Assembly: GCA_012646185.1 (NCBI GenBank)
Contig: GCA_012646185.1_4706.1
Length of the DNA stretch: 64,000 nucleotides
Reading direction: 5' to 3' (one strand)
DNA from: a phage
Part shown: positions 3,033-49,529 of the stretch, piece by piece
How positions within the stretch are numbered: the first letter of the stretch is position 1
Layout of the letters: each line of letters starts with the position of its first letter
The notes under the pieces: model-generated
The model's database searches: none
The model's input: only the letters and a program-made list of their open reading frames with translations
Told to the model about the DNA's origin: nothing
Translations under genes and position numbers: made by a program

Positions 3033-3254
3033 TTAGCAATGGTTGTTAGTTGCTTCTATTTCATCAAGATACGGTTCTACGTCATCGCCCTCCACGAATT
3101 CGTTGAACCAACAGTCAATGGTAGAAATAACCGGTGACTGGTGTTCACATTTCTTAGATACCTTAAAAGGCACGTTATTATCCATCATACCGAGTTCGGG
3201 TCGAAAACGCCCGAAATGTTTCGCAGTCCAAATGTCTGGGACGATATGGTTGTT
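3033..3254 (-). CDS. exon 3 of beta-prime-like gene (73 codons + stop)
   Basis: Begins AAC AAC CAT ATC GTC CCA (NNHIVP, cf. E. coli QMAVHVP after DFDGD) immediately after an intron-terminal G at 3255; in frame with the micro-exon. Confidence 0.7.
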   Translation of the reverse strand, partial: NNHIVPDIWTAKHFGRFRPELGMMDNNVPFKVSKKCEHQSPVISTIDCWFNEFVEGDDVEPYLDEIEATNNHC

Positions 3255-5233
3255 CATCAAAATCTTCAGTATGAATCGCTACTTCATACCCGCAGCATTA
3301 CCTGCAGCTCCTGGTGTTACCAGGATGTTGAGAGTATATCATGCCCATATTCCAAATGGAACGTAGGACTTCCGCGCTGGATCTCGCTTGAGACCACTTA
3401 CTCGTTGAACGTTCTCCTAAACGGAGCTTCGCTGCTGATTGGACATTGTTACGTACGGTAGGCGTCCCATTAAAGGGATTTTCATTGAAGCCGCGTACAT
3501 CCGTTACCTTGTTTCTACCTTATCGGTTCCTCTTACGAGGCGTAACGGCTTTAGCCTATTCCAGCAATTCACGGAATGCATATTCTCCTTTTCAGGAGAT
3601 AAGGCCATGGCTCTGGCATCACCGTCAAAGTCCACATATCTTCAGTATGAATCGCTACTTCATACCCGCAGCATTACCTGCAGCTCCTGGTGTTACCAGG
3701 ACGGAGAGATCATCTCATCACCCACGAAGGGTGTTCCGCGCTACCCTCAGCGAATTCGAGGGACATGATCGTTGAACCTTCCACCGATAATCGGTGGCTA
3801 GGCTGCTGATTAAACATTGTACGTTGGGGTGGCATCCTGGTTCAGGACTGTCGTTGAAGCCTCCCAACATCCACTCACTTATTTCCGCCTTATCGGCTCC
3901 CATAAGGGCAGAGTGGCTTTAGCCCGTCTCAGCAATTCACGGAATTCAAGCTCTTCCTTTCAGAAGGCAGGGCCTCATCTGAAGCATTGTATCCCTTAAG
4001 GATCATCACGCTTAACCCGATGGTGTTATCCTGCGGATCGCGTTTAACCTTGGTGATTTCAAGACATTGGTTACTGCTTCGGTCAAGTGATGGGTTTCGA
4101 ACAAAGCCGCACACAATCCCATCGAACGGCGTATCAGCAATAAGCTCATCGTGCAGCTCGCTCATCATCGGATGATAATTACGGACATGTTCCGCAACGA
4201 ACGCACGCGCTGCTCTCGGTGAGTAACCACGATGGAATAACTTGGATTGGATATGTTCTTTATTGGTTAAAGTAAATGGTGCGTATGGGAAATGCAGATG
4301 ATAATAACGATGGTTCGCTGTTATCGAACTGATTACGGTACGCGTGGTGAATGGATGTAATGTACCTAATATGTTTTTACGTGTAATACCTTTCTTCTTA
4401 CCGATGAACTCATCGAAAATCGCTGCGTGGTATTGCAGTAGCTTCAATTGCACTTTCGCCATCCAGTTTTCTTTCTTTCTGGCGCTCAAAGGTGTTGTTG
4501 GATGATAGATACTGTTCAACGTACCAATAGCATCGATCGCACCTTCCATTTTGCTATCCGCATAACGACCGGTCGGCGTATTTTCGATAACGAACATCAT
4601 GGCTGCAGGAAAGCTGATATACTGACTGAAGAACTTATCACGATGGATACGGATGAATTCTCGTAGCGTGTCAACTTTCTCCATGTTCTTCGGTCCACGT
4701 AACGTCGGTCCTTTATACAAGATCTCCATGATGCGATCGAAGTTCTGTATAAAGCTATTTACGCCACGCCGTATCCCGAATACATCGAATTGCTGCTCCA
4801 GATAGTTCTTGAGTTCGATGGGTCGTTTTACATTTGGACGGTAACTGGCATCAATGAGCCACGTCATCGTTTCAAAGCTTTTGATATTCAACTCGCTTGC
4901 CAGCACGAGATGGACCAACGGGTTAATGAACGCATCGATTCCTTCAGGAACGCGCGCCCAAACCGTCGAACGAATCTCTTGTTCTGCTGGGTAGGTTACA
5001 ACCGTTTTACAGTTTGGACACACCGTGCCGAGTAGCTCACCACGATTGTAGAAACCACAACCACATTGTGGTGTGATATCCAACGTATCGCTGGAGTAAA
5101 CACGGGTGATAAAACTGTTTAATTTCTTCTTCTCTTCGACGACTTTTGTATCGTAATCATTCAACAAAATCGGCGTGAAAGGAAGTTCTGCGAGCTGTCT
5201 ATCGAAACTCACGATATCGAGCATGATGGCCAT
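3033..5233 (-). CDS. RNA polymerase beta-prime-like subunit, N-terminal fragment type (non-virion RNAP by synteny); gene interrupted by two group I introns
   Basis: Exon 1 carries a Cys4 zinc-ribbon (CGCG...CPNC), a match to the beta-prime [12 protein letters not shown] region (RKNILGTLHPFTTRTVIS) and an NRAPTLH-like RNPSLD; the spliced product of exons 3983..5233 + 3618..3632 + 3033..3254 (495 aa) reads ...KGYNA-DFDGD-NNHIVPD..., restoring the universal NADFDGD Mg-binding motif; AGGAG SD before the ATG at 5233. Confidence 0.75.
3255..3617 (-). ncRNA. group I intron (no ORF), 3'-proximal member of a tandem pair
   Basis: On the minus strand, in canonical order: P-like GAAUUGCUGGAAU (plus 3561-3573), Q-like AAUCAGCAGC (plus 3431-3440), R-like GUUCAACGAGUAAG (plus 3397-3410), S-like GAUAUACUCU (plus 3331-3340) with P7 pairing GAGUA/UACUC; ends in G; preceding exon ends in U. 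Confidence 0.75.
3618..3632 (-). CDS. 15-nt micro-exon encoding D-F-D-G-D (catalytic aspartate triad)
   Basis: Minus strand GAC TTT GAC GGT GAT lies exactly between the two introns, in frame with exon 1 (ends ...TAC AAT GCT = YNA) and exon 3. Confidence 0.7.
3633..3982 (-). ncRNA. group I intron (no ORF), 5'-proximal member of a tandem pair
   Basis: P-like GAAUUGCUGAGA (plus 3928-3940), Q-like AAUCAGCAGCC (plus 3801-3811), R-like GGUUCAACGAUCAUG (plus 3764-3778), S-like GAUGAUCUCUC (plus 3704-3714) with P7 GAUCAU/AUGAUC; ends in G at 3633; exon 1 ends in U at 3983. Confidence 0.8.
3983..5233 (-). CDS. exon 1 of beta-prime-like gene (417 codons)
   Basis: ORF-track ORF 3929..5233 truncated at the 5' splice site; the 18 track codons after ...GYNA (SDEALPSERKSLNSVNC) are intron-encoded and overlap the intron P element. 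Confidence 0.7.
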
Positions 5234-49000: not shown

Positions 49001-49529
49001 CGCTTTCATACCCACCTTCTTTTACTTCTATTTCACGTAAACCCGCAGGTAAAACCAGTAGATGACGAGTCATCGCTTTGAACATGTTCTCTTCGACGAC
49101 TTTAATTCGTAGCTCTCGTTGAGCTGAACCCGTTGAAACGAACTTAATATCAGCGACGTGTTGTGCAAAGAACCCGTACCCTGTCTGTCCTGTTAACGCA
49201 TCAGACGCAACGAAGTCGCGTTGTTCAGGATCCCAACGCGCGTACGCCTTCCCCGACATGATATCGCCATAGAGGTGTTTTAGTCGAATGAGACGATCGT
49301 AGATGACAGGATGTAGGATTTCAACCTTGCATTCAATCACCGCAAATCGACGGTCTCGATCTTCACTACCCGCACTACCAAAGATGGTGTATGAATAGAA
49401 ACCGTCATCGTGGAAATTACCGGTGCTTGGATCACGAATGCTCATGCTCGTGATCTTGGGGAGAAAACGTAACTGCTGTTTATCGAGGTGTAAAATACTA
49501 ATATTAAACGGCTCTCTGACTTTAGCCAT
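45901..49529 (-). CDS. RNA polymerase beta-prime-like subunit, N-terminal fragment type (virion RNAP by synteny); gene interrupted by a group I intron
   Basis: Exon 1 shows GLFxxxIFGP-like (DGFYSYTIFGS), QGKFGSRRVWNSTRNVISAINP (cf. [26 protein letters not shown]) and TRYPVSG (cf. NRAPTLH); splicing 48063..49529 to 45901..46080 gives ...YLAGLGGD-FDGD-TVSVNV... (548 aa); AAGAGGAG SD before the ATG at 49529. Confidence 0.75.
46081..48062 (-). ncRNA. group I intron carrying an HNH homing-endonuclease ORF (mobile intron)
   Basis: Minus strand: 5' exon ends GGT GAT (U); ORF 46515..47987 lies in the 5' part; core follows with P-like GAAAUGCUGGGAAC (plus 46451-46465), Q-like AAUCAGCAGCC (46314-46324), R GUUCAACGACUAAG (46246-46260), S GAUAUAGUCUC (46164-46174), P7 GACUA/UAGUC; ends in G. 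Confidence 0.8.
46515..47987 (-). CDS. HNH homing endonuclease (intron-encoded)
   Basis: 490 aa; HNH_3-type motif VNHLDADKWNYSLDNLEWATRSRNVLH; C-terminal helix-turn-helix-like AKAIGISKPAATSRL; lies entirely within the intron. Confidence 0.8.
   Translation of the reverse strand: MFKWRVSEKEFISIPFLSWIEIDGYGNLRYRDTHVVIPRNGDMVILAGREFNIPALICIAHKNILVDIETQKYVKAMFVDGDESNWDVDNLSYRFEPAYEIAKYPGYRVIPGHTRYLINEKGRVIRRKDGQECRSYPKKDNYVFISLRHDCRDVTRTKVLHRCLMLAWREYPANVDKLDVNHLDADKWNYSLDNLEWATRSRNVLHAIEYGLRDDNKPVLLWDTWNDTVTEYLSITQASVVAGVTDTTMGKHVRKVKLFNNRWVVKFKDDPQPWPDIKSADGNFIGSGIMNQIRIYHPDGSTTVVHSANEASRQTGVKSATVLYRANNNPGWHGPEGYGFEHVNMVLHQQAVERRQQLLDSRPDFIVVVDRDGNETPYKTVVDAAKAIGISKPAATSRLNESYGLVDVNGYMLEYAEPERREYWRDVLRKHYRAVEVTRPDDTKLVVLGARSAENLSQLSATTIRHRVNHPDIKCDKRRKDKWDFRYLNK
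48063..49529 (-). CDS. exon 1 of virion-type beta-prime-like gene (489 codons)
   Basis: ORF-track ORF 48054..49571 trimmed at both ends: start at the SD-supported ATG 49529; the last two track codons (S, I) and the stop are intron sequence. Confidence 0.65.

What the first reader, a model, noticed from the sequence alone, without database searches (positions are those of the whole stretch)
3033..49529. Three group I introns occupy three different phosphodiester positions within five codons of the catalytic motif in two paralogous RNAP genes
In the first gene the introns sit before D1 (GCT|GAC) and after D3 (GAT|AAC); in the second gene the intron sits after D1 (GAT|TTC). All three share P and Q-like elements (GAAUUGCUGG-type and AAUCAGCAGC), so they look related, yet their insertion points differ by 3 to 15 nt. 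This is expected if a homing endonuclease recognises the highly conserved DFDGD coding sequence in both paralogs and introns have been acquired or re-inserted more than once. It also makes production of both phage RNA polymerases dependent on RNA self-splicing.
Basis: inference. Interest (0 to 1): 0.8.

Follow-up and report, generated by a model that had tools for sequence, protein, structure and literature searches.

The report
Stacked self-splicing introns in polymerase active-site codons
A Goslar-like giant E. coli phage has three related self-splicing introns cut into the DNA that encodes the catalytic magnesium-binding loop of both of its RNA polymerases, and related phages carry different combinations of such introns at about ten neighbouring positions, so this loop is a hot spot for mobile introns.

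Summary
The window comes from a Goslar-like nucleus-forming jumbo phage. All features lie on the minus strand.

**Non-virion RNAP beta'-N gene (phiKZ gp55 homologue).** Two ORF-less group I introns (3982..3633 and 3614..3258) flank an 18-nt micro-exon, GAC TTT GAC GGT GAT GCC (DFDGDA).

**Virion RNAP beta'-N gene (gp180 homologue).** One 1982-nt intron (48062..46081) sits between D1 and F. It carries a 490-aa HNH endonuclease in its P1 loop.

**Junctions.** GCT|GAC and GAT|TTC are confirmed. The third is GCC|ATG, not GAT|AAC. Sister alleles from metagenomes that lack one or other intron prove every junction.

**Evidence that the introns are functional and related.** Thirty of 94 base pairs show compensatory changes, and the guide sequences co-vary with the exons. 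The three introns are related (I1/I2 71% identical, I3 about 51%).

**Variation among relatives.** Twelve Goslar-like alleles show five different intron combinations, with up to three introns within 27 nt of coding sequence. Some introns occur both with and without an endonuclease gene. Across chimalliviruses I found about ten insertion positions within 29 nt.

**Novelty.** Introns in phiKZ gp55 and gp180 were already predicted, so the kind is known. The stacking, the micro-exons and the hot spot are new. A single endonuclease serving both paralogues is not supported.

The parts
3983..5233 (-). Exon 1 of the non-virion RNAP beta'-N gene (phiKZ gp55 homologue). It encodes 417 codons and ends ...LKGYNA (AAT GCT).
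   Evidence: ORF list. PHROG 2987 matches residues 1-473 at E 6e-131, and Pfam RNA_pol_Rpb1_2 scores 31.6 bits. The gene lies next to the chimallin gene, as in Goslar and phiKZ-like PA02.
3633..3982 (-). Intron 1: an ORF-less group I intron of 350 nt, inserted between the Ala and D1 codons (GCU|GAC). P1 pairs GCU|UC with GAGGC, giving a U.G pair at the splice site. The intron ends in G.
   Evidence: Rfam 23.1 bits. Covariation. P1 table. The site is empty in Goslar and L025. The same intron occurs alone in L024 and L030.
3615..3632 (-). 18-nt micro-exon GAC TTT GAC GGT GAT GCC, encoding DFDGDA. This is the whole catalytic Mg2+-binding aspartate triad.
   Evidence: Sequence. Alleles L024, L030 and L025 read DFDGDAMNNH without interruption. 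Homologues keep the spacing DFDGD-x-(L/M)-N...D.
3258..3614 (-). Intron 2: an ORF-less group I intron of 357 nt, inserted after the Ala codon that follows D3 (GCC|AUG). The guide sequence CAUGGC is complementary to the ligated exons GCC|AUG (P1 plus P10). The -1 nucleotide is C, giving a C-G pair instead of U.G. The intron ends in G.
   Evidence: Rfam 27.4 bits. 85% identical to Goslar intron B. Covariation. P1 table. The junction is proven by alleles lacking this intron.
3033..3257 (-). Exon 3 of the non-virion beta'-N gene: MNNHIVPDIW...NNHC plus the stop codon. The spliced product is 497 aa.
   Evidence: Translation. It aligns with intron-less homologues from Xoo-sp14, RAY and Noxifer.
48063..49571 (-). 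Exon 1 of the virion RNAP beta'-N gene (phiKZ gp180 homologue). It encodes 503 codons and ends ...LAGLGGD (GGT GAT).
   Evidence: ORF list. PHROG 2986 matches residues 17-557 at E 2e-179. Most homologues are uninterrupted through the motif.
46081..48062 (-). Intron 3: a group I intron of 1982 nt inserted between the D1 and F codons (GAU|UUC). It ends in G.
   Evidence: Rfam 56.3 bits. The intron-less allele L010 and the ORF-less 510-nt version L012 define the junction. The same site is occupied in phiKZ-like OMKO1.
46515..47987 (-). 490-aa HNH homing-endonuclease ORF lying in the P1 loop of intron 3, between the 5' splice site and the guide sequence.
   Evidence: Pfam HNH_3 E 1.7e-8; PHROG 59 HNH endonuclease E 1e-26. 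86% identical to Goslar gp206. The ORF is absent from L012.
46081..46505 (-). Ribozyme core of intron 3. It starts with the guide sequence GAGUC (46505..46501), which pairs with GAU|UC.
   Evidence: Rfam alignment. In the P1 table the +1 pair is U-A in the window, C-G in Goslar and A-U in L012.
45901..46080 (-). Exon 2 of the virion beta'-N gene: FDGDTVSVNV...PRGA plus the stop codon. The spliced product is 562 aa.
   Evidence: Translation. Identical protein in the intron-less allele L010.

Best explanation
**What it is**
- The window belongs to a Goslar-like chimallivirus.
- The codons for the catalytic NADFDGD loop of both beta'-N polymerase subunits are occupied by three members of one family of self-splicing group I introns.
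- Each intron must excise itself from the pre-mRNA, by guanosine attack at a P1 helix formed between the last exon bases and an internal guide sequence.
- Excision rebuilds ...GYNA-DFDGDA-MNNH... in the non-virion enzyme (two splices around an 18-nt micro-exon) and ...GGD-FDGD... in the virion enzyme (one splice).

**How it most likely arose**
- The arrangement is the current state of a fast invasion-and-decay cycle in a hot spot. This step is inferred.
- Different intron/HNH-endonuclease pairs, exchanged between co-infecting phages, each home to their own phosphodiester within this invariant sequence.
- The endonuclease genes are then lost, leaving ORF-less ribozymes.
- Neighbouring introns recombine with one another.
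- Occasionally an intron, or its 5' guide module, moves to a nearby site that offers the same three exon bases.

**Shown versus inferred**
- Shown: intron identity, junctions, conserved structure, polymorphism, mosaicism, and versions with and without an endonuclease gene.
- Inferred: actual splicing, endonuclease activity, and the route by which new sites are colonised.
For: **Source and gene identity**
- The window is 96.5% and 90% identical to Goslar.

**The introns are real ribozymes**
- Rfam hits.
- On six sequences, 98.4% of cells are paired and 30 of 94 pairs are compensatory. Three pair types occur in the P7 pseudoknot, and the G-C pair at the position of the guanosine-binding site is invariant.

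**Guide sequence and exon co-vary**
- I1 pairs GCU|UC with GAGGC, while I3 pairs GAU|UC with GAGUC.
- The +1 pair of I3 is U-A, C-G or A-U in three alleles.
- In intron A, GACUU|C pairs with GGAGUC in Goslar and GAUUU|C with GGGAUC in L009.

**Junctions are proven by natural intron-minus alleles**
- L010 proves the I3 junction.
- L024, L030, L028 and L025 prove the +18 site. Goslar and L025 prove the -1 site.

**Turnover**
- Twelve Goslar-like gene-1 alleles fall into five configurations: I1+I2; A(HNH)+B; C+A+B; I1 only; C(HNH) only.
- Gene 2 occurs with an HNH-bearing intron, with an ORF-less intron, or with no intron.
- Introns A, C and I3 each exist both with and without an endonuclease gene.

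**Mosaicism**
- The P2 module of I1 is 92% identical to Goslar intron B, but its core is only 30-67% identical.
- The core of I2 is 84-96% identical to B.
- P9-P9.1 is 100% identical between I1 and I2.

**Hot spot across genera**
- Introns lie after nt -10, -9, -4, -1, +3, +5, +9, +12, +15 and +18.
- Nearly all of them are Rfam-positive at 51-88 bits.

**Precedent**
- phiKZ gp55 and gp180 introns (PMC11512511).
- The PhiPA3 gp210 intron endonuclease acting in phage competition (PMC11620839).
Against: - No RNA data were available, so splicing itself is not shown.
- A long-read transcriptome of phiKZ found no spliced reads for the homologous gp56, gp72 and gp179 introns (PMC10914365).
- Introns 1 and 2 score below Rfam's gathering cutoff.
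- Intron 2 has C, not U, at -1. A C-G pair at this position weakens P1 docking about 80-fold in Tetrahymena (PMC1891724), so it may splice poorly.
- The P1 helices are short (4-5 bp) and are not significant on their own. An unconstrained search finds equally long chance helices.
- No fully intron-less gene-1 allele was found among Goslar-like phages.
- The order of events (homing versus ectopic transposition versus recombination) cannot be resolved from these sequences.
Confidence: 0.8

Rival explanations
1. A single homing endonuclease recognises the conserved DFDGD coding sequence in both paralogous genes and has seeded related introns in both, at slightly different positions.
For: - The motif DNA is 13 of 15 nt identical between the two genes.
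- I1 and I3 have homologous 5' modules whose guide sequences differ by one base.
- In phiKZ-like phages the non-virion-gene intron (PA02) and the virion-gene intron (OMKO1) are 87% identical over the last 134 nt. Cross-paralogue spread has therefore happened at least twice.
Against: - Only intron 3 has an ORF in this window.
- The endonucleases in different hot-spot introns are 25-36% identical, so they are different enzymes.
- The sequences flanking the 15-nt motif are unrelated between the paralogues.
- Homing reproduces the donor's insertion site, so it does not create offsets.
- In this genome the gene-1 motif is an 18-bp island between introns. That is shorter than the roughly 25 bp or more that I-HmuI-type HNH enzymes contact (my own knowledge, not tested here).
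Confidence: 0.12
2. RNA-level ectopic transposition. An intron RNA reverse-spliced into the polymerase mRNA at a nearby site that matches its very short guide sequence (GCU followed by U). It was then fixed by reverse transcription and recombination. This would create intron 1 (after the Ala codon before D1) from a B-type intron (after the Ala codon following D3), or the reverse.
For: - I1 and Goslar intron B share a 92%-identical P1-P2 module. Both follow a GCU Ala codon and use (G/U)AGGC.
- The three bases 5' of the I1 guide sequence (GAU) differ by one base from B's P10 element CAU, which is matched to the +18 3' exon AUG.
- Simple DNA duplication or slippage does not generate the observed arrangement (my reasoning).
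- Reverse splicing needs only 4-6 complementary bases (PMC3984707).
Against: - No reverse transcriptase is known in these phages.
- The cores of I1 and B are only 30-67% identical. Module swapping by recombination between tandem introns, which is demonstrably active because P9-P9.1 is 100% identical, explains the shared module equally well.
- Phage EL has an HNH-bearing intron at the same A|D1 site, so ordinary homing could have delivered an intron there.
Confidence: 0.2
3. Shield model. The ORF-less introns are kept because each one splits the target site of endonucleases carried by competing phages. Stacking introns around the motif would then be selected as immunity in intron warfare between co-infecting chimalliviruses.
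For: - The PhiPA3 intron endonuclease damages the intron-less gene of the co-infecting phage phiKZ (PMC11620839).
- Here, endonuclease-bearing and ORF-less versions of the same introns co-circulate.
- No Goslar-like gene-1 allele is intron-free.
- In the window the motif is reduced to an 18-bp island.
- Neighbouring inteins are known to interfere with each other's homing (PMC10643990).
Against: - This rests on inference only.
- An intron occupying its own site is immune by definition, without any extra selection.
- Alleles with a single intron exist (L024, L025).
- The intron-less gene-2 allele (L010) persists.
Confidence: 0.3
4. The intervening sequences in gene 1 are decayed relics, and gene 1 is a pseudogene or is expressed as separate polypeptides.
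For: - Introns 1 and 2 fall below the Rfam cutoff.
- Intron 2 lacks the canonical U at -1.
- GenBank annotates the Goslar pieces as separate ORFs.
Against: - The structure is maintained by 30 compensatory pairs.
- Exon protein sequence is identical across alleles that have different introns.
- The 18-nt exon carries the indispensable aspartate triad and has no start codon or ribosome-binding site of its own.
- The spliced product matches the whole PHROG family profile.
- phiKZ gp55 contains 417-DFDGD-421 in the solved enzyme (PMC8287921).
Confidence: 0.03

Closest known systems
phiKZ introns in gp55 (non-virion beta') and gp180 (virion beta'), with the HNH genes gp56 and gp179. Predicted by Mesyanzhinov 2002 and Ceyssens 2014, as cited in PMC11512511 and PMC10914365.
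   Same: - The same two paralogous genes and the same catalytic loop.
- The same intron family, recognisable by its twin-hairpin 3' tail.
- HNH_3 endonucleases.
- The virion-gene site D1|F is identical in the phiKZ-like phage OMKO1.
   Different: - phiKZ-like phages have one intron per gene. In PA02 the non-virion-gene intron sits at N|A.
- This window has two tandem ORF-less introns at A|D1 and A|M around a micro-exon.
- The exact position relative to DFDGD, the multiplicity of sites and the polymorphism are not described in the papers I could read.
PhiPA3 gp210 intron endonuclease in the virion RNAP beta gene (Birkholz et al. 2024, PMC11620839).
   Same: - A group I intron with an HNH nicking endonuclease in an essential chimallivirus RNAP gene, at invariant aspartates.
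- It provides the ecological rationale of competition between co-infecting phages.
- A Goslar-like relative (L012) carries an ORF-less intron at that same DD site.
   Different: - A different gene (beta, not beta') and a single site.
- The window's beta gene (41551..45897) is uninterrupted.
Staphylococcus phage Twort orf142, with three group I introns in one gene and exon skipping (Landthaler and Shub 1999). Listed in the references of PMC11620839; the details are from my own knowledge.
   Same: Several related ORF-less group I introns in one phage gene, with a risk of exon skipping between neighbouring ribozymes.
   Different: - Twort's introns are not packed into one catalytic motif.
- Here the exons between introns are 10-18 nt.
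- Here the occupancy varies between near-identical genomes.
Phage T4 td, nrdB and nrdD group I introns and the homing cycle, including ORF-less or defunct-endonuclease introns mobilised in trans (PMC2988022, PMC2790892).
   Same: - Self-splicing introns in conserved codons of essential genes.
- An endonuclease ORF looped out of the ribozyme core.
- Coexistence of forms with and without the ORF.
- P9.1/P9.2-type 3' extensions.
   Different: - T4 introns are single per gene at fixed sites.
- In intron 3 the ORF lies in the P1 loop rather than the P6 or P9 loops (the T4 loop positions are from my own knowledge).
Clustered intein sites in haloarchaeal MCM helicase (PMC10643990).
   Same: Several mobile self-splicing elements crowd neighbouring sites of one conserved motif and influence each other's homing.
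   Different: - Those are protein-splicing inteins, not RNA introns.
- Their sites are tens of codons apart, not 1-6 codons.

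Membership tests
Group I self-splicing intron (Rfam RF00028) | Conserved core helices P3-P9, including the P3/P7 pseudoknot and the P7 G-C pair at the position of the guanosine-binding site | tested here: met
   - Rfam alignments cover the full model (positions 1-253) for all three introns.
- For I1, I2 and their orthologues, 94 pairs are 98.4% paired and 30 are compensatory. The P7 pair G217-C291 is invariant, and position 219/289 has three pair types.
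Group I self-splicing intron (Rfam RF00028) | Score at or above the curated gathering cutoff (50 bits) | tested here: inconclusive
   - Intron 3 scores 56.3 bits, so the feature is met.
- Intron 1 scores 23.1 bits and intron 2 scores 27.4 bits, so it is not met.
- The large P5 extensions are treated as insertions by the model.
Group I self-splicing intron (Rfam RF00028) | The 5' exon ends in U, which forms a U.G wobble with the internal guide sequence in P1 | tested here: inconclusive
   - Met for intron 1 (GCU|UC with GAGGC) and intron 3 (GAU|UC with GAGUC), with covariation between alleles.
- Not met for intron 2, where the exon ends GCC and gives a C-G pair.
- That junction is fixed by alleles lacking the intron.
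Group I self-splicing intron (Rfam RF00028) | The intron ends in G (omega-G) | tested here: met
   The introns end ...ATGTG|...TTTTG| and ...CAAGG|. The same holds for every intron surveyed.
Group I self-splicing intron (Rfam RF00028) | Removal restores an ORF collinear with uninterrupted homologues | tested here: met
   - Intron-less or singly occupied natural alleles: L010, L024, L030, L025 and Goslar.
- Full-length PHROG matches of the spliced products.
Group I self-splicing intron (Rfam RF00028) | Autocatalytic, guanosine-dependent splicing | not testable with these tools
   - This needs in vitro transcription and splicing, or RT-PCR.
- phiKZ long-read data did not show splicing of the homologous introns (PMC10914365).
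Intron-encoded HNH homing endonuclease (I-HmuI-like, Pfam HNH_3) | HNH catalytic domain | tested here: met
   Pfam PF13392 HNH_3, E 1.7e-8, residues 176-204. PHROG 59, E 1e-26.
Intron-encoded HNH homing endonuclease (I-HmuI-like, Pfam HNH_3) | ORF looped out of the ribozyme core, with ORF-plus, ORF-minus and empty-site alleles in the population | tested here: met
   - The ORF lies between the 5' splice site and the guide sequence, i.e. in the P1 loop.
- L012 has the same intron without the ORF, and L010 has no intron.
Intron-encoded HNH homing endonuclease (I-HmuI-like, Pfam HNH_3) | Site-specific nicking of the intron-less allele near the insertion site | not testable with these tools
   This requires purified protein and L010-type target DNA.
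Multisubunit RNAP beta' N-terminal subunit of chimalliviruses (phiKZ gp55 and gp180 families) | NADFDGD Mg2+-binding loop in a double-psi beta-barrel | tested here: met
   - Gene 1 after splicing reads GYNADFDGDAMNNH, with Pfam RNA_pol_Rpb1_2 at 31.6 bits against a cutoff of 25.3.
- Gene 2 after splicing reads GLGGDFDGDTVSVN. It has no Pfam hit, but PHROG 2986 matches at E 2e-179.
- phiKZ gp55 has 417-DFDGD-421 (PMC8287921).
Multisubunit RNAP beta' N-terminal subunit of chimalliviruses (phiKZ gp55 and gp180 families) | Conserved gene neighbourhood: the gp55 homologue next to chimallin, and the gp180 homologue next to the large beta subunit | tested here: met
   Goslar annotation. PA02. RAY. 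Window ORFs 5326..7221 and 41551..45897.
Twintron (an intron inside an intron) | One intron interrupts the other and must be removed first | tested here: not met
   - Introns 1 and 2 are complete, separate ribozymes separated by an 18-nt exon that is present in the mature coding sequence.
- This is a tandem arrangement, not a nested one.

The most novel reading that the evidence does not exclude
The catalytic-loop codons of chimallivirus RNA polymerases are a battlefield where competing intron/endonuclease pairs pile up. Two things would follow if this is true. First, ORF-less introns would be retained as shields that break up rivals' endonuclease target sites. That would make a stack of ribozymes around an 18-nt exon an immunity device rather than junk. 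Second, the pair I1 and B would be a rare natural footprint of guide-sequence-directed ectopic intron transposition in a protein-coding gene. Both carry the same 5' guide module and follow the two GCU alanine codons that flank DFDGD, 19 nt apart. One of the introns also works with a non-canonical C-G pair at the 5' splice site.
Probability: 0.3. Interest if true: 0.75.

Novelty: new variant of a known kind. Interest (0 to 1): 0.58.

Why it matters
**Dependence on ribozymes.** Both transcription machines of a nucleus-forming phage depend on ribozymes cutting themselves out of the few codons that hold the catalytic magnesium. The non-virion enzyme needs two correct splices around a six-codon exon. 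Skipping that exon would delete the active site.

**A natural population series for studying intron turnover.**
- Near-identical Goslar-like genomes carry five intron configurations in one gene and three in the other.
- The same introns occur with and without endonuclease genes.
- This makes it possible to study how mobile introns invade, decay, recombine and change sites.

**A link to phage competition.** It extends the recent finding that an intron endonuclease mediates competition between co-infecting jumbo phages (PhiPA3 versus phiKZ) from the beta gene to the beta' genes. It also predicts concrete incompatibilities between Goslar-like phages.

**Practical consequence for annotation.** GenBank and automatic annotation of these genes is wrong. 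The exons are called as separate hypothetical proteins, and the micro-exons are missed.

**Practical consequence for expression.** Anyone expressing these polymerases needs the spliced sequence.

Tried and rejected
1. **My first junction for intron 2 (GAT|GCC ... |ATG, no Ala).** Rejected. It gives a product one residue shorter than all homologues and a U-C mismatch at the splice site. Alleles without the intron read GAC GCG ATG.
Rejected for the same reasons. It would drop both Ala and Met.
3. **Rfam's own boundaries for introns 1 and 2 (3992..3686 and 3671..3310).** Rejected. They omit the P9.1/P9.2 tails, and the second swallows the micro-exon as an insertion.
4. **MAFFT alignment of all nine family members, including intron 3.** The 3' half was misaligned. 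I therefore restricted covariation counting to the six alignable I1/I2/B sequences.
5. **Unconstrained search for the best P1 helix.** It was dominated by chance helices, especially inside the ORFs. I replaced it with a comparison at the homologous position just 5' of P2.
6. **Building my own covariance model.** Not attempted. At 366 columns, calibration would exceed the time limit.
7. **blastn of introns 1, 2 and 3 against 50,697 phage records.** The only close relative is Goslar. Other hits were short core motifs.
8. **Twintron reading, pseudogene reading and single large intron reading.** All rejected (see the rival explanations and membership tests).
9. **Papers that could not be read.** Ceyssens 2014, Lavysh 2016, Landthaler and Shub 1999 and 2003 are not in the library. 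The Goslar genome paper does not mention introns.
10. **The Aeromonas phage PS1 intervening sequence (258 nt).** It has no Rfam hit, so I count that site as uncertain.

Full report
**Source and gene identity**

The window is 96.5% (gene-1 region) and 90.3% (gene-2 region) identical to Escherichia phage Goslar, a nucleus-forming jumbo phage, but it is not Goslar itself. All relevant features lie on the minus strand.

Gene 1:
- It lies immediately downstream of the chimallin nuclear-shell gene (5326..7221). This is the position of phiKZ gp55, the N-terminal beta'-like subunit of the non-virion RNA polymerase.
- A trial spliced product (496 aa, made before the Ala codon was assigned to the micro-exon) matches PHROG 2987 over residues 1-473 (E 6e-131). 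It also passes Pfam RNA_pol_Rpb1_2.

Gene 2:
- It lies upstream of a 1448-aa beta-like gene (41551..45897). This is the position of phiKZ gp180, the virion-polymerase beta'-N subunit.
- Its spliced product matches PHROG 2986 over residues 17-557 (E 2e-179).

**Are there three group I introns?**

- Rfam finds intron 3 above its gathering cutoff (46530..46144, 56.3 bits, E 1.3e-11).
- In a 12-kb search it finds two tandem sub-threshold matches in gene 1 (27.4 and 23.1 bits, E 0.0012 and 0.022).
- No other intron is detectable in the window, and there are no tRNAs.
- To test the two weak candidates I aligned them with their orthologues from Goslar and from two IMG/VR contigs (L008, L009).
- RNAalifold recovers P2, P3, P4, P5 with a large three-way extension, P6, a P7.1-like hairpin, P8, P9, P9.1 and P9.2.
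- With P7 added as a pseudoknot, 98.4% of 562 cells pair and 30 of 94 pairs show changes on both sides. Sliding the partner by 1-3 columns gives 38-43% paired and 1-2 such pairs.
- P7 reads GAUCA/UGAUC in intron 1, GAGUA/UACUC in intron 2 and GAAUA/UAUUC in Goslar intron B. The G-C pair at the position of the guanosine-binding site is invariant.
- These are functional ribozymes, not relics.

**Exact junctions**

String searches fix the coordinates:

| Feature | Coordinates | Notes |
|---|---|---|
| Gene 1 exon 1 | 5233..3983 | ends AAT GCT |
| Intron 1 | 3982..3633 | 350 nt |
| Micro-exon | 3632..3615 | GAC TTT GAC GGT GAT GCC |
| Intron 2 | 3614..3258 | 357 nt |
| Gene 1 exon 3 | 3257..3033 | starts ATG AAC AAC |
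| Gene 2 exon 1 | 49571..48063 | ends GGT GAT |
| Intron 3 | 48062..46081 | 1982 nt |
| Gene 2 exon 2 | 46080..45901 | starts TTC GAC GGT GAT |

- The second junction is not. I first suspected this for two reasons. Every uninterrupted homologue has DFDGD-x-(L/M)-N and nine residues up to a conserved Asp. Also, the guide sequence CAUGGC is the exact complement of GCC|AUG.
- The proof came from one metagenome scan for the exon-3 start. Contigs L024, L030, L028 and L025 lack this intron and read ...GAC GCG ATG AAC....
- The window protein spliced at my junctions (497 aa) is identical to the L024 product over the last 183 residues compared.
- For gene 2, contig L010 is a natural intron-less allele reading GGG GAC TTT GAT GGT GAT ACG.
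- Numbering the first base of the D1 codon as +1, the three introns lie after nt -1, +18 (gene 1) and +3 (gene 2).

**P1 helices and guide sequences**

I compared the position just 5' of P2, which is homologous in all family members.

| Intron | 5' exon and intron start | Guide sequence |
|---|---|---|
| Intron 1 | GCU\|UC | GAGGC |
| Goslar B | GCU\|UA | UAGGC |
| Intron 3, window | GAU\|UC | GAGUC |
| Intron 3, Goslar | GAU\|C | GGUC |
| Intron 3, L012 | GAU\|AA | UUGUC |

- The +1 pair of intron 3 is therefore U-A, C-G or A-U in three alleles.
- The guide sequence differs by one base between the GCU-site and GAU-site introns.
- The unrelated intron A shows the same behaviour. GACUU|C pairs with GGAGUC in Goslar, and GAUUU|C pairs with GGGAUC in L009.
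- The helices are short. An unconstrained search finds chance helices of equal length, so the covariation carries the argument, not helix length.
- In intron 3 the whole 490-aa ORF lies between the 5' splice site and the guide sequence, that is, in the P1 loop.

**One anomaly**

- Intron 2 of the window and of L008 follows GCC. The splice-site pair is therefore C-G rather than the conserved U.G, which is described as required for ribozyme activity. A C-G replacement raises P1 undocking about 80-fold in Tetrahymena (PMC1891724).
- All other introns I examined end their 5' exon in U.
- I cannot say whether this intron tolerates the change or splices slowly.

**Relatedness and mosaicism**

- Overall identities are 71% for I1 versus I2 and 85% for I2 versus Goslar B.
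- I3 is about 51% identical to either. It shares the P2 hairpin, the P5 extension motifs and the characteristic 3' end: two hairpins, the second with a GUAGCGA loop, followed by GAAGA.
- Segment by segment:
  - The P2 module of I1 is 92% identical to Goslar B, but its core is only 30-67% identical.
  - The core of I2 is 84-96% identical to B, but its P1-P2 module is 46-60% identical.
  - P9-P9.1 is 100% identical between I1 and I2 in both genomes that carry them.
- The introns therefore exchange modules by recombination.
- Notably, I1 and B both sit after a GCU alanine codon (NA|DFDGD and DFDGDA|M) and use the same guide module.

**Polymorphism among Goslar-like genomes**

Twelve gene-1 alleles fall into five configurations:

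| Configuration | Alleles |
|---|---|
| I1 + I2 | window, L008 |
| Intron A (with HNH gene gp186, inside the Phe codon TT\|C) + B | Goslar |
| C (inside the Tyr codon T\|AT) + ORF-less A + B | L009, L023, L026, L027, L029 |
| I1 only | L024, L030, and probably the truncated contig L028 |
| C only, with a 323-aa putative endonuclease ORF (homology not tested) in its P1 loop | L025 |

- In the triple-intron alleles, three ribozymes are separated by exons of 13 nt each, so all three sites fall within 27 nt of coding sequence.
- Gene 2 occurs with an HNH-bearing intron (window, Goslar), with the same intron ORF-less at 510 nt (L012), or with no intron (L010).
- The exon proteins are essentially identical throughout. 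Exon DNA differs by about 5.6%, rising to about 15% in the 60 nt around the gene-2 site.

**A hot spot across genera**

tblastn of the two spliced proteins against 50,697 phage records found 307 and 310 records. Most hits run uninterrupted through the motif. Of the listed hits that break off at the motif, I inspected eleven.

Non-virion gene:

| Phage | Site | After nt | Notes |
|---|---|---|---|
| LucasX | A\|P | -10 | |
| PA02 (phiKZ-like) | N\|A | -4 | HNH |
| EL | A\|D1 | -1 | HNH ORF025 |
| Yong MS31 | D2\|G | +9 | 449-aa ORF |
| 2050HW | G\|D3 | +12 | |
| PS119XW | D3\|Q | +15 | |

Virion gene:

| Phage | Site | After nt | Notes |
|---|---|---|---|
| OMKO1 (phiKZ-like) | D1\|F | +3 | |
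| PS1 | G\|D3 | +12 | 258 nt, no Rfam hit, uncertain |
| VP4B | D3\|Q | +15 | |

- PCH45 turned out to be uninterrupted.
- All but PS1 are Rfam-positive at 51-88 bits.
- Together with the Goslar-like sites (-9, -1, +3, +5, +18), this gives about ten distinct phosphodiester positions in 29 nt. Almost all lie after a U that ends a codon.
- The endonucleases are all HNH_3 proteins but are only 25-36% identical to each other.
- In phiKZ-like phages the non-virion-gene and virion-gene introns are 87% identical over their last 134 nt. Transfer between the paralogues has therefore happened there too.

**Interpretation**

What is shown:
- Three related, structurally constrained group I introns at defined junctions in the catalytic-loop codons of both beta'-N genes.
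- One intron carries an HNH gene.
- Rapid turnover, loss of endonuclease genes and module exchange in the population.

What is inferred:
- The introns self-splice.
- The HNH proteins home.
- New sites arise by one or more of three routes:
  - independent homing of distinct intron/endonuclease pairs;
  - ectopic integration guided by the three-base exon match, by reverse splicing or by relaxed endonuclease specificity (both discussed in PMC3984707);
  - recombination between neighbouring introns.

I favour repeated homing plus decay plus recombination as the main process. The I1/B pair is a candidate for ectopic movement. A single endonuclease serving both paralogues is not supported. The dependence of both polymerases on splicing holds for this genome but not for all relatives, because L010 has an intron-free virion gene.

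**Comparison with what is known**

- Introns in phiKZ gp55 and gp180, and the endonucleases gp56, gp72 and gp179, have been predicted since the phiKZ genome paper (cited in PMC11512511 and PMC10914365). The latter paper saw no spliced reads.
- The phiKZ enzyme structure places 417-DFDGD-421 in gp55 (PMC8287921).
- The PhiPA3 gp210 work shows that such an endonuclease can cripple a co-infecting phage (PMC11620839). That intron is in the beta gene. A Goslar-like relative has an ORF-less intron at exactly that DD site, while the window does not.
- I found no paper describing the DFDGD hot spot, tandem or triple introns, or micro-exons in these genes.
- The kind is therefore known. The stacked arrangement, the hot spot and the population series are new.

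**Verdict**

- Observation: partly confirmed.
- Interpretation: partly supported.
- Novelty: new variant of a known kind.
- Interest: 0.58.

Noticed in passing
L012 9410-9873 (contig IMGVR_UViG_3300045988_173921); the homologous window gene is 41551..45897 (-): A Goslar-like relative has an ORF-less group I intron (Rfam 54 bits) in the virion RNAP beta gene. It sits right after ...AVPAADRDD (aa 1069), the same 'two aspartates' site as the PhiPA3 gp210 intron. The window's beta gene is uninterrupted. That relative therefore carries at least five introns in RNAP genes.
   Followed up: partly
L001 about 3190..2130 (-), i.e. Goslar intron A with gp186: The HNH gene of Goslar intron A sits near the intron's 3' end, bracketed by a perfect 14-bp inverted repeat (TTACGTGCACCGAC / GTCGGTGCACGTAA). 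The same intron in L009 and four other contigs lacks both the ORF and the repeat. It looks like a discrete endonuclease cassette.
   Followed up: partly
window about 48033..47975 (-), just upstream of the HNH ORF start at 47987: A hairpin pairs the ribosome-binding site and AUG of the intron-3 endonuclease ORF. It is conserved in Goslar (MFE -12.4 and -12.7 kcal/mol, z -2.2 and -2.8). It is reminiscent of translational control of phage T4 intron endonucleases.
   Followed up: partly
window 48063..48090 and 46040..46080 (-), the exon flanks of intron 3: Among four alleles, the 25 nt upstream of the gene-2 insertion site are hypervariable at synonymous positions. The 40 nt downstream are invariant. 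The intron-less allele has GAC TTT GAT where intron-bearing alleles have GAT TTC GAC or GAT TTC GAT. This may reflect endonuclease target or resistance signatures, or co-conversion tracts.
   Followed up: partly
window 3615 (-): the C at the -1 position of intron 2: The 5' exon of intron 2 ends in C (GCC) in the window and in L008, giving a C-G pair instead of the near-universal U.G pair at a group I 5' splice site. Orthologous B introns follow GCT, and empty sites read GCG or GCA.
   Followed up: partly
L006 (PA02) 5183..5554 and L013 (OMKO1) 4468..4948: In phiKZ-like phages the non-virion-gene intron and the virion-gene intron are 87% identical over their last 134 nt. The two paralogous genes have therefore exchanged intron sequence in that lineage as well.
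   Followed up: partly
window 8572..8630: A GC-rich perfect hairpin lies between the convergent genes 7476..8570 (+) and 8637..10790 (-, divergent family B DNA polymerase). Rfam reports it only as weak microRNA-like noise on both strands. It is most likely a bidirectional terminator.
   Followed up: no
L014 2519..4158 (Serratia phage 2050HW virion beta'-N gene): In 2050HW the virion beta'-N homologue is annotated as three overlapping ORFs (tblastn gives three pieces) with no intervening sequence. This suggests frameshifts or sequencing errors rather than introns.
   Followed up: no
L021 3959..4216 (Aeromonas phage PS1): A 258-nt intervening sequence splits DFDG|D in the virion beta'-N gene. 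It gives no Rfam group I match. It may be a very reduced or divergent intron.
   Followed up: no
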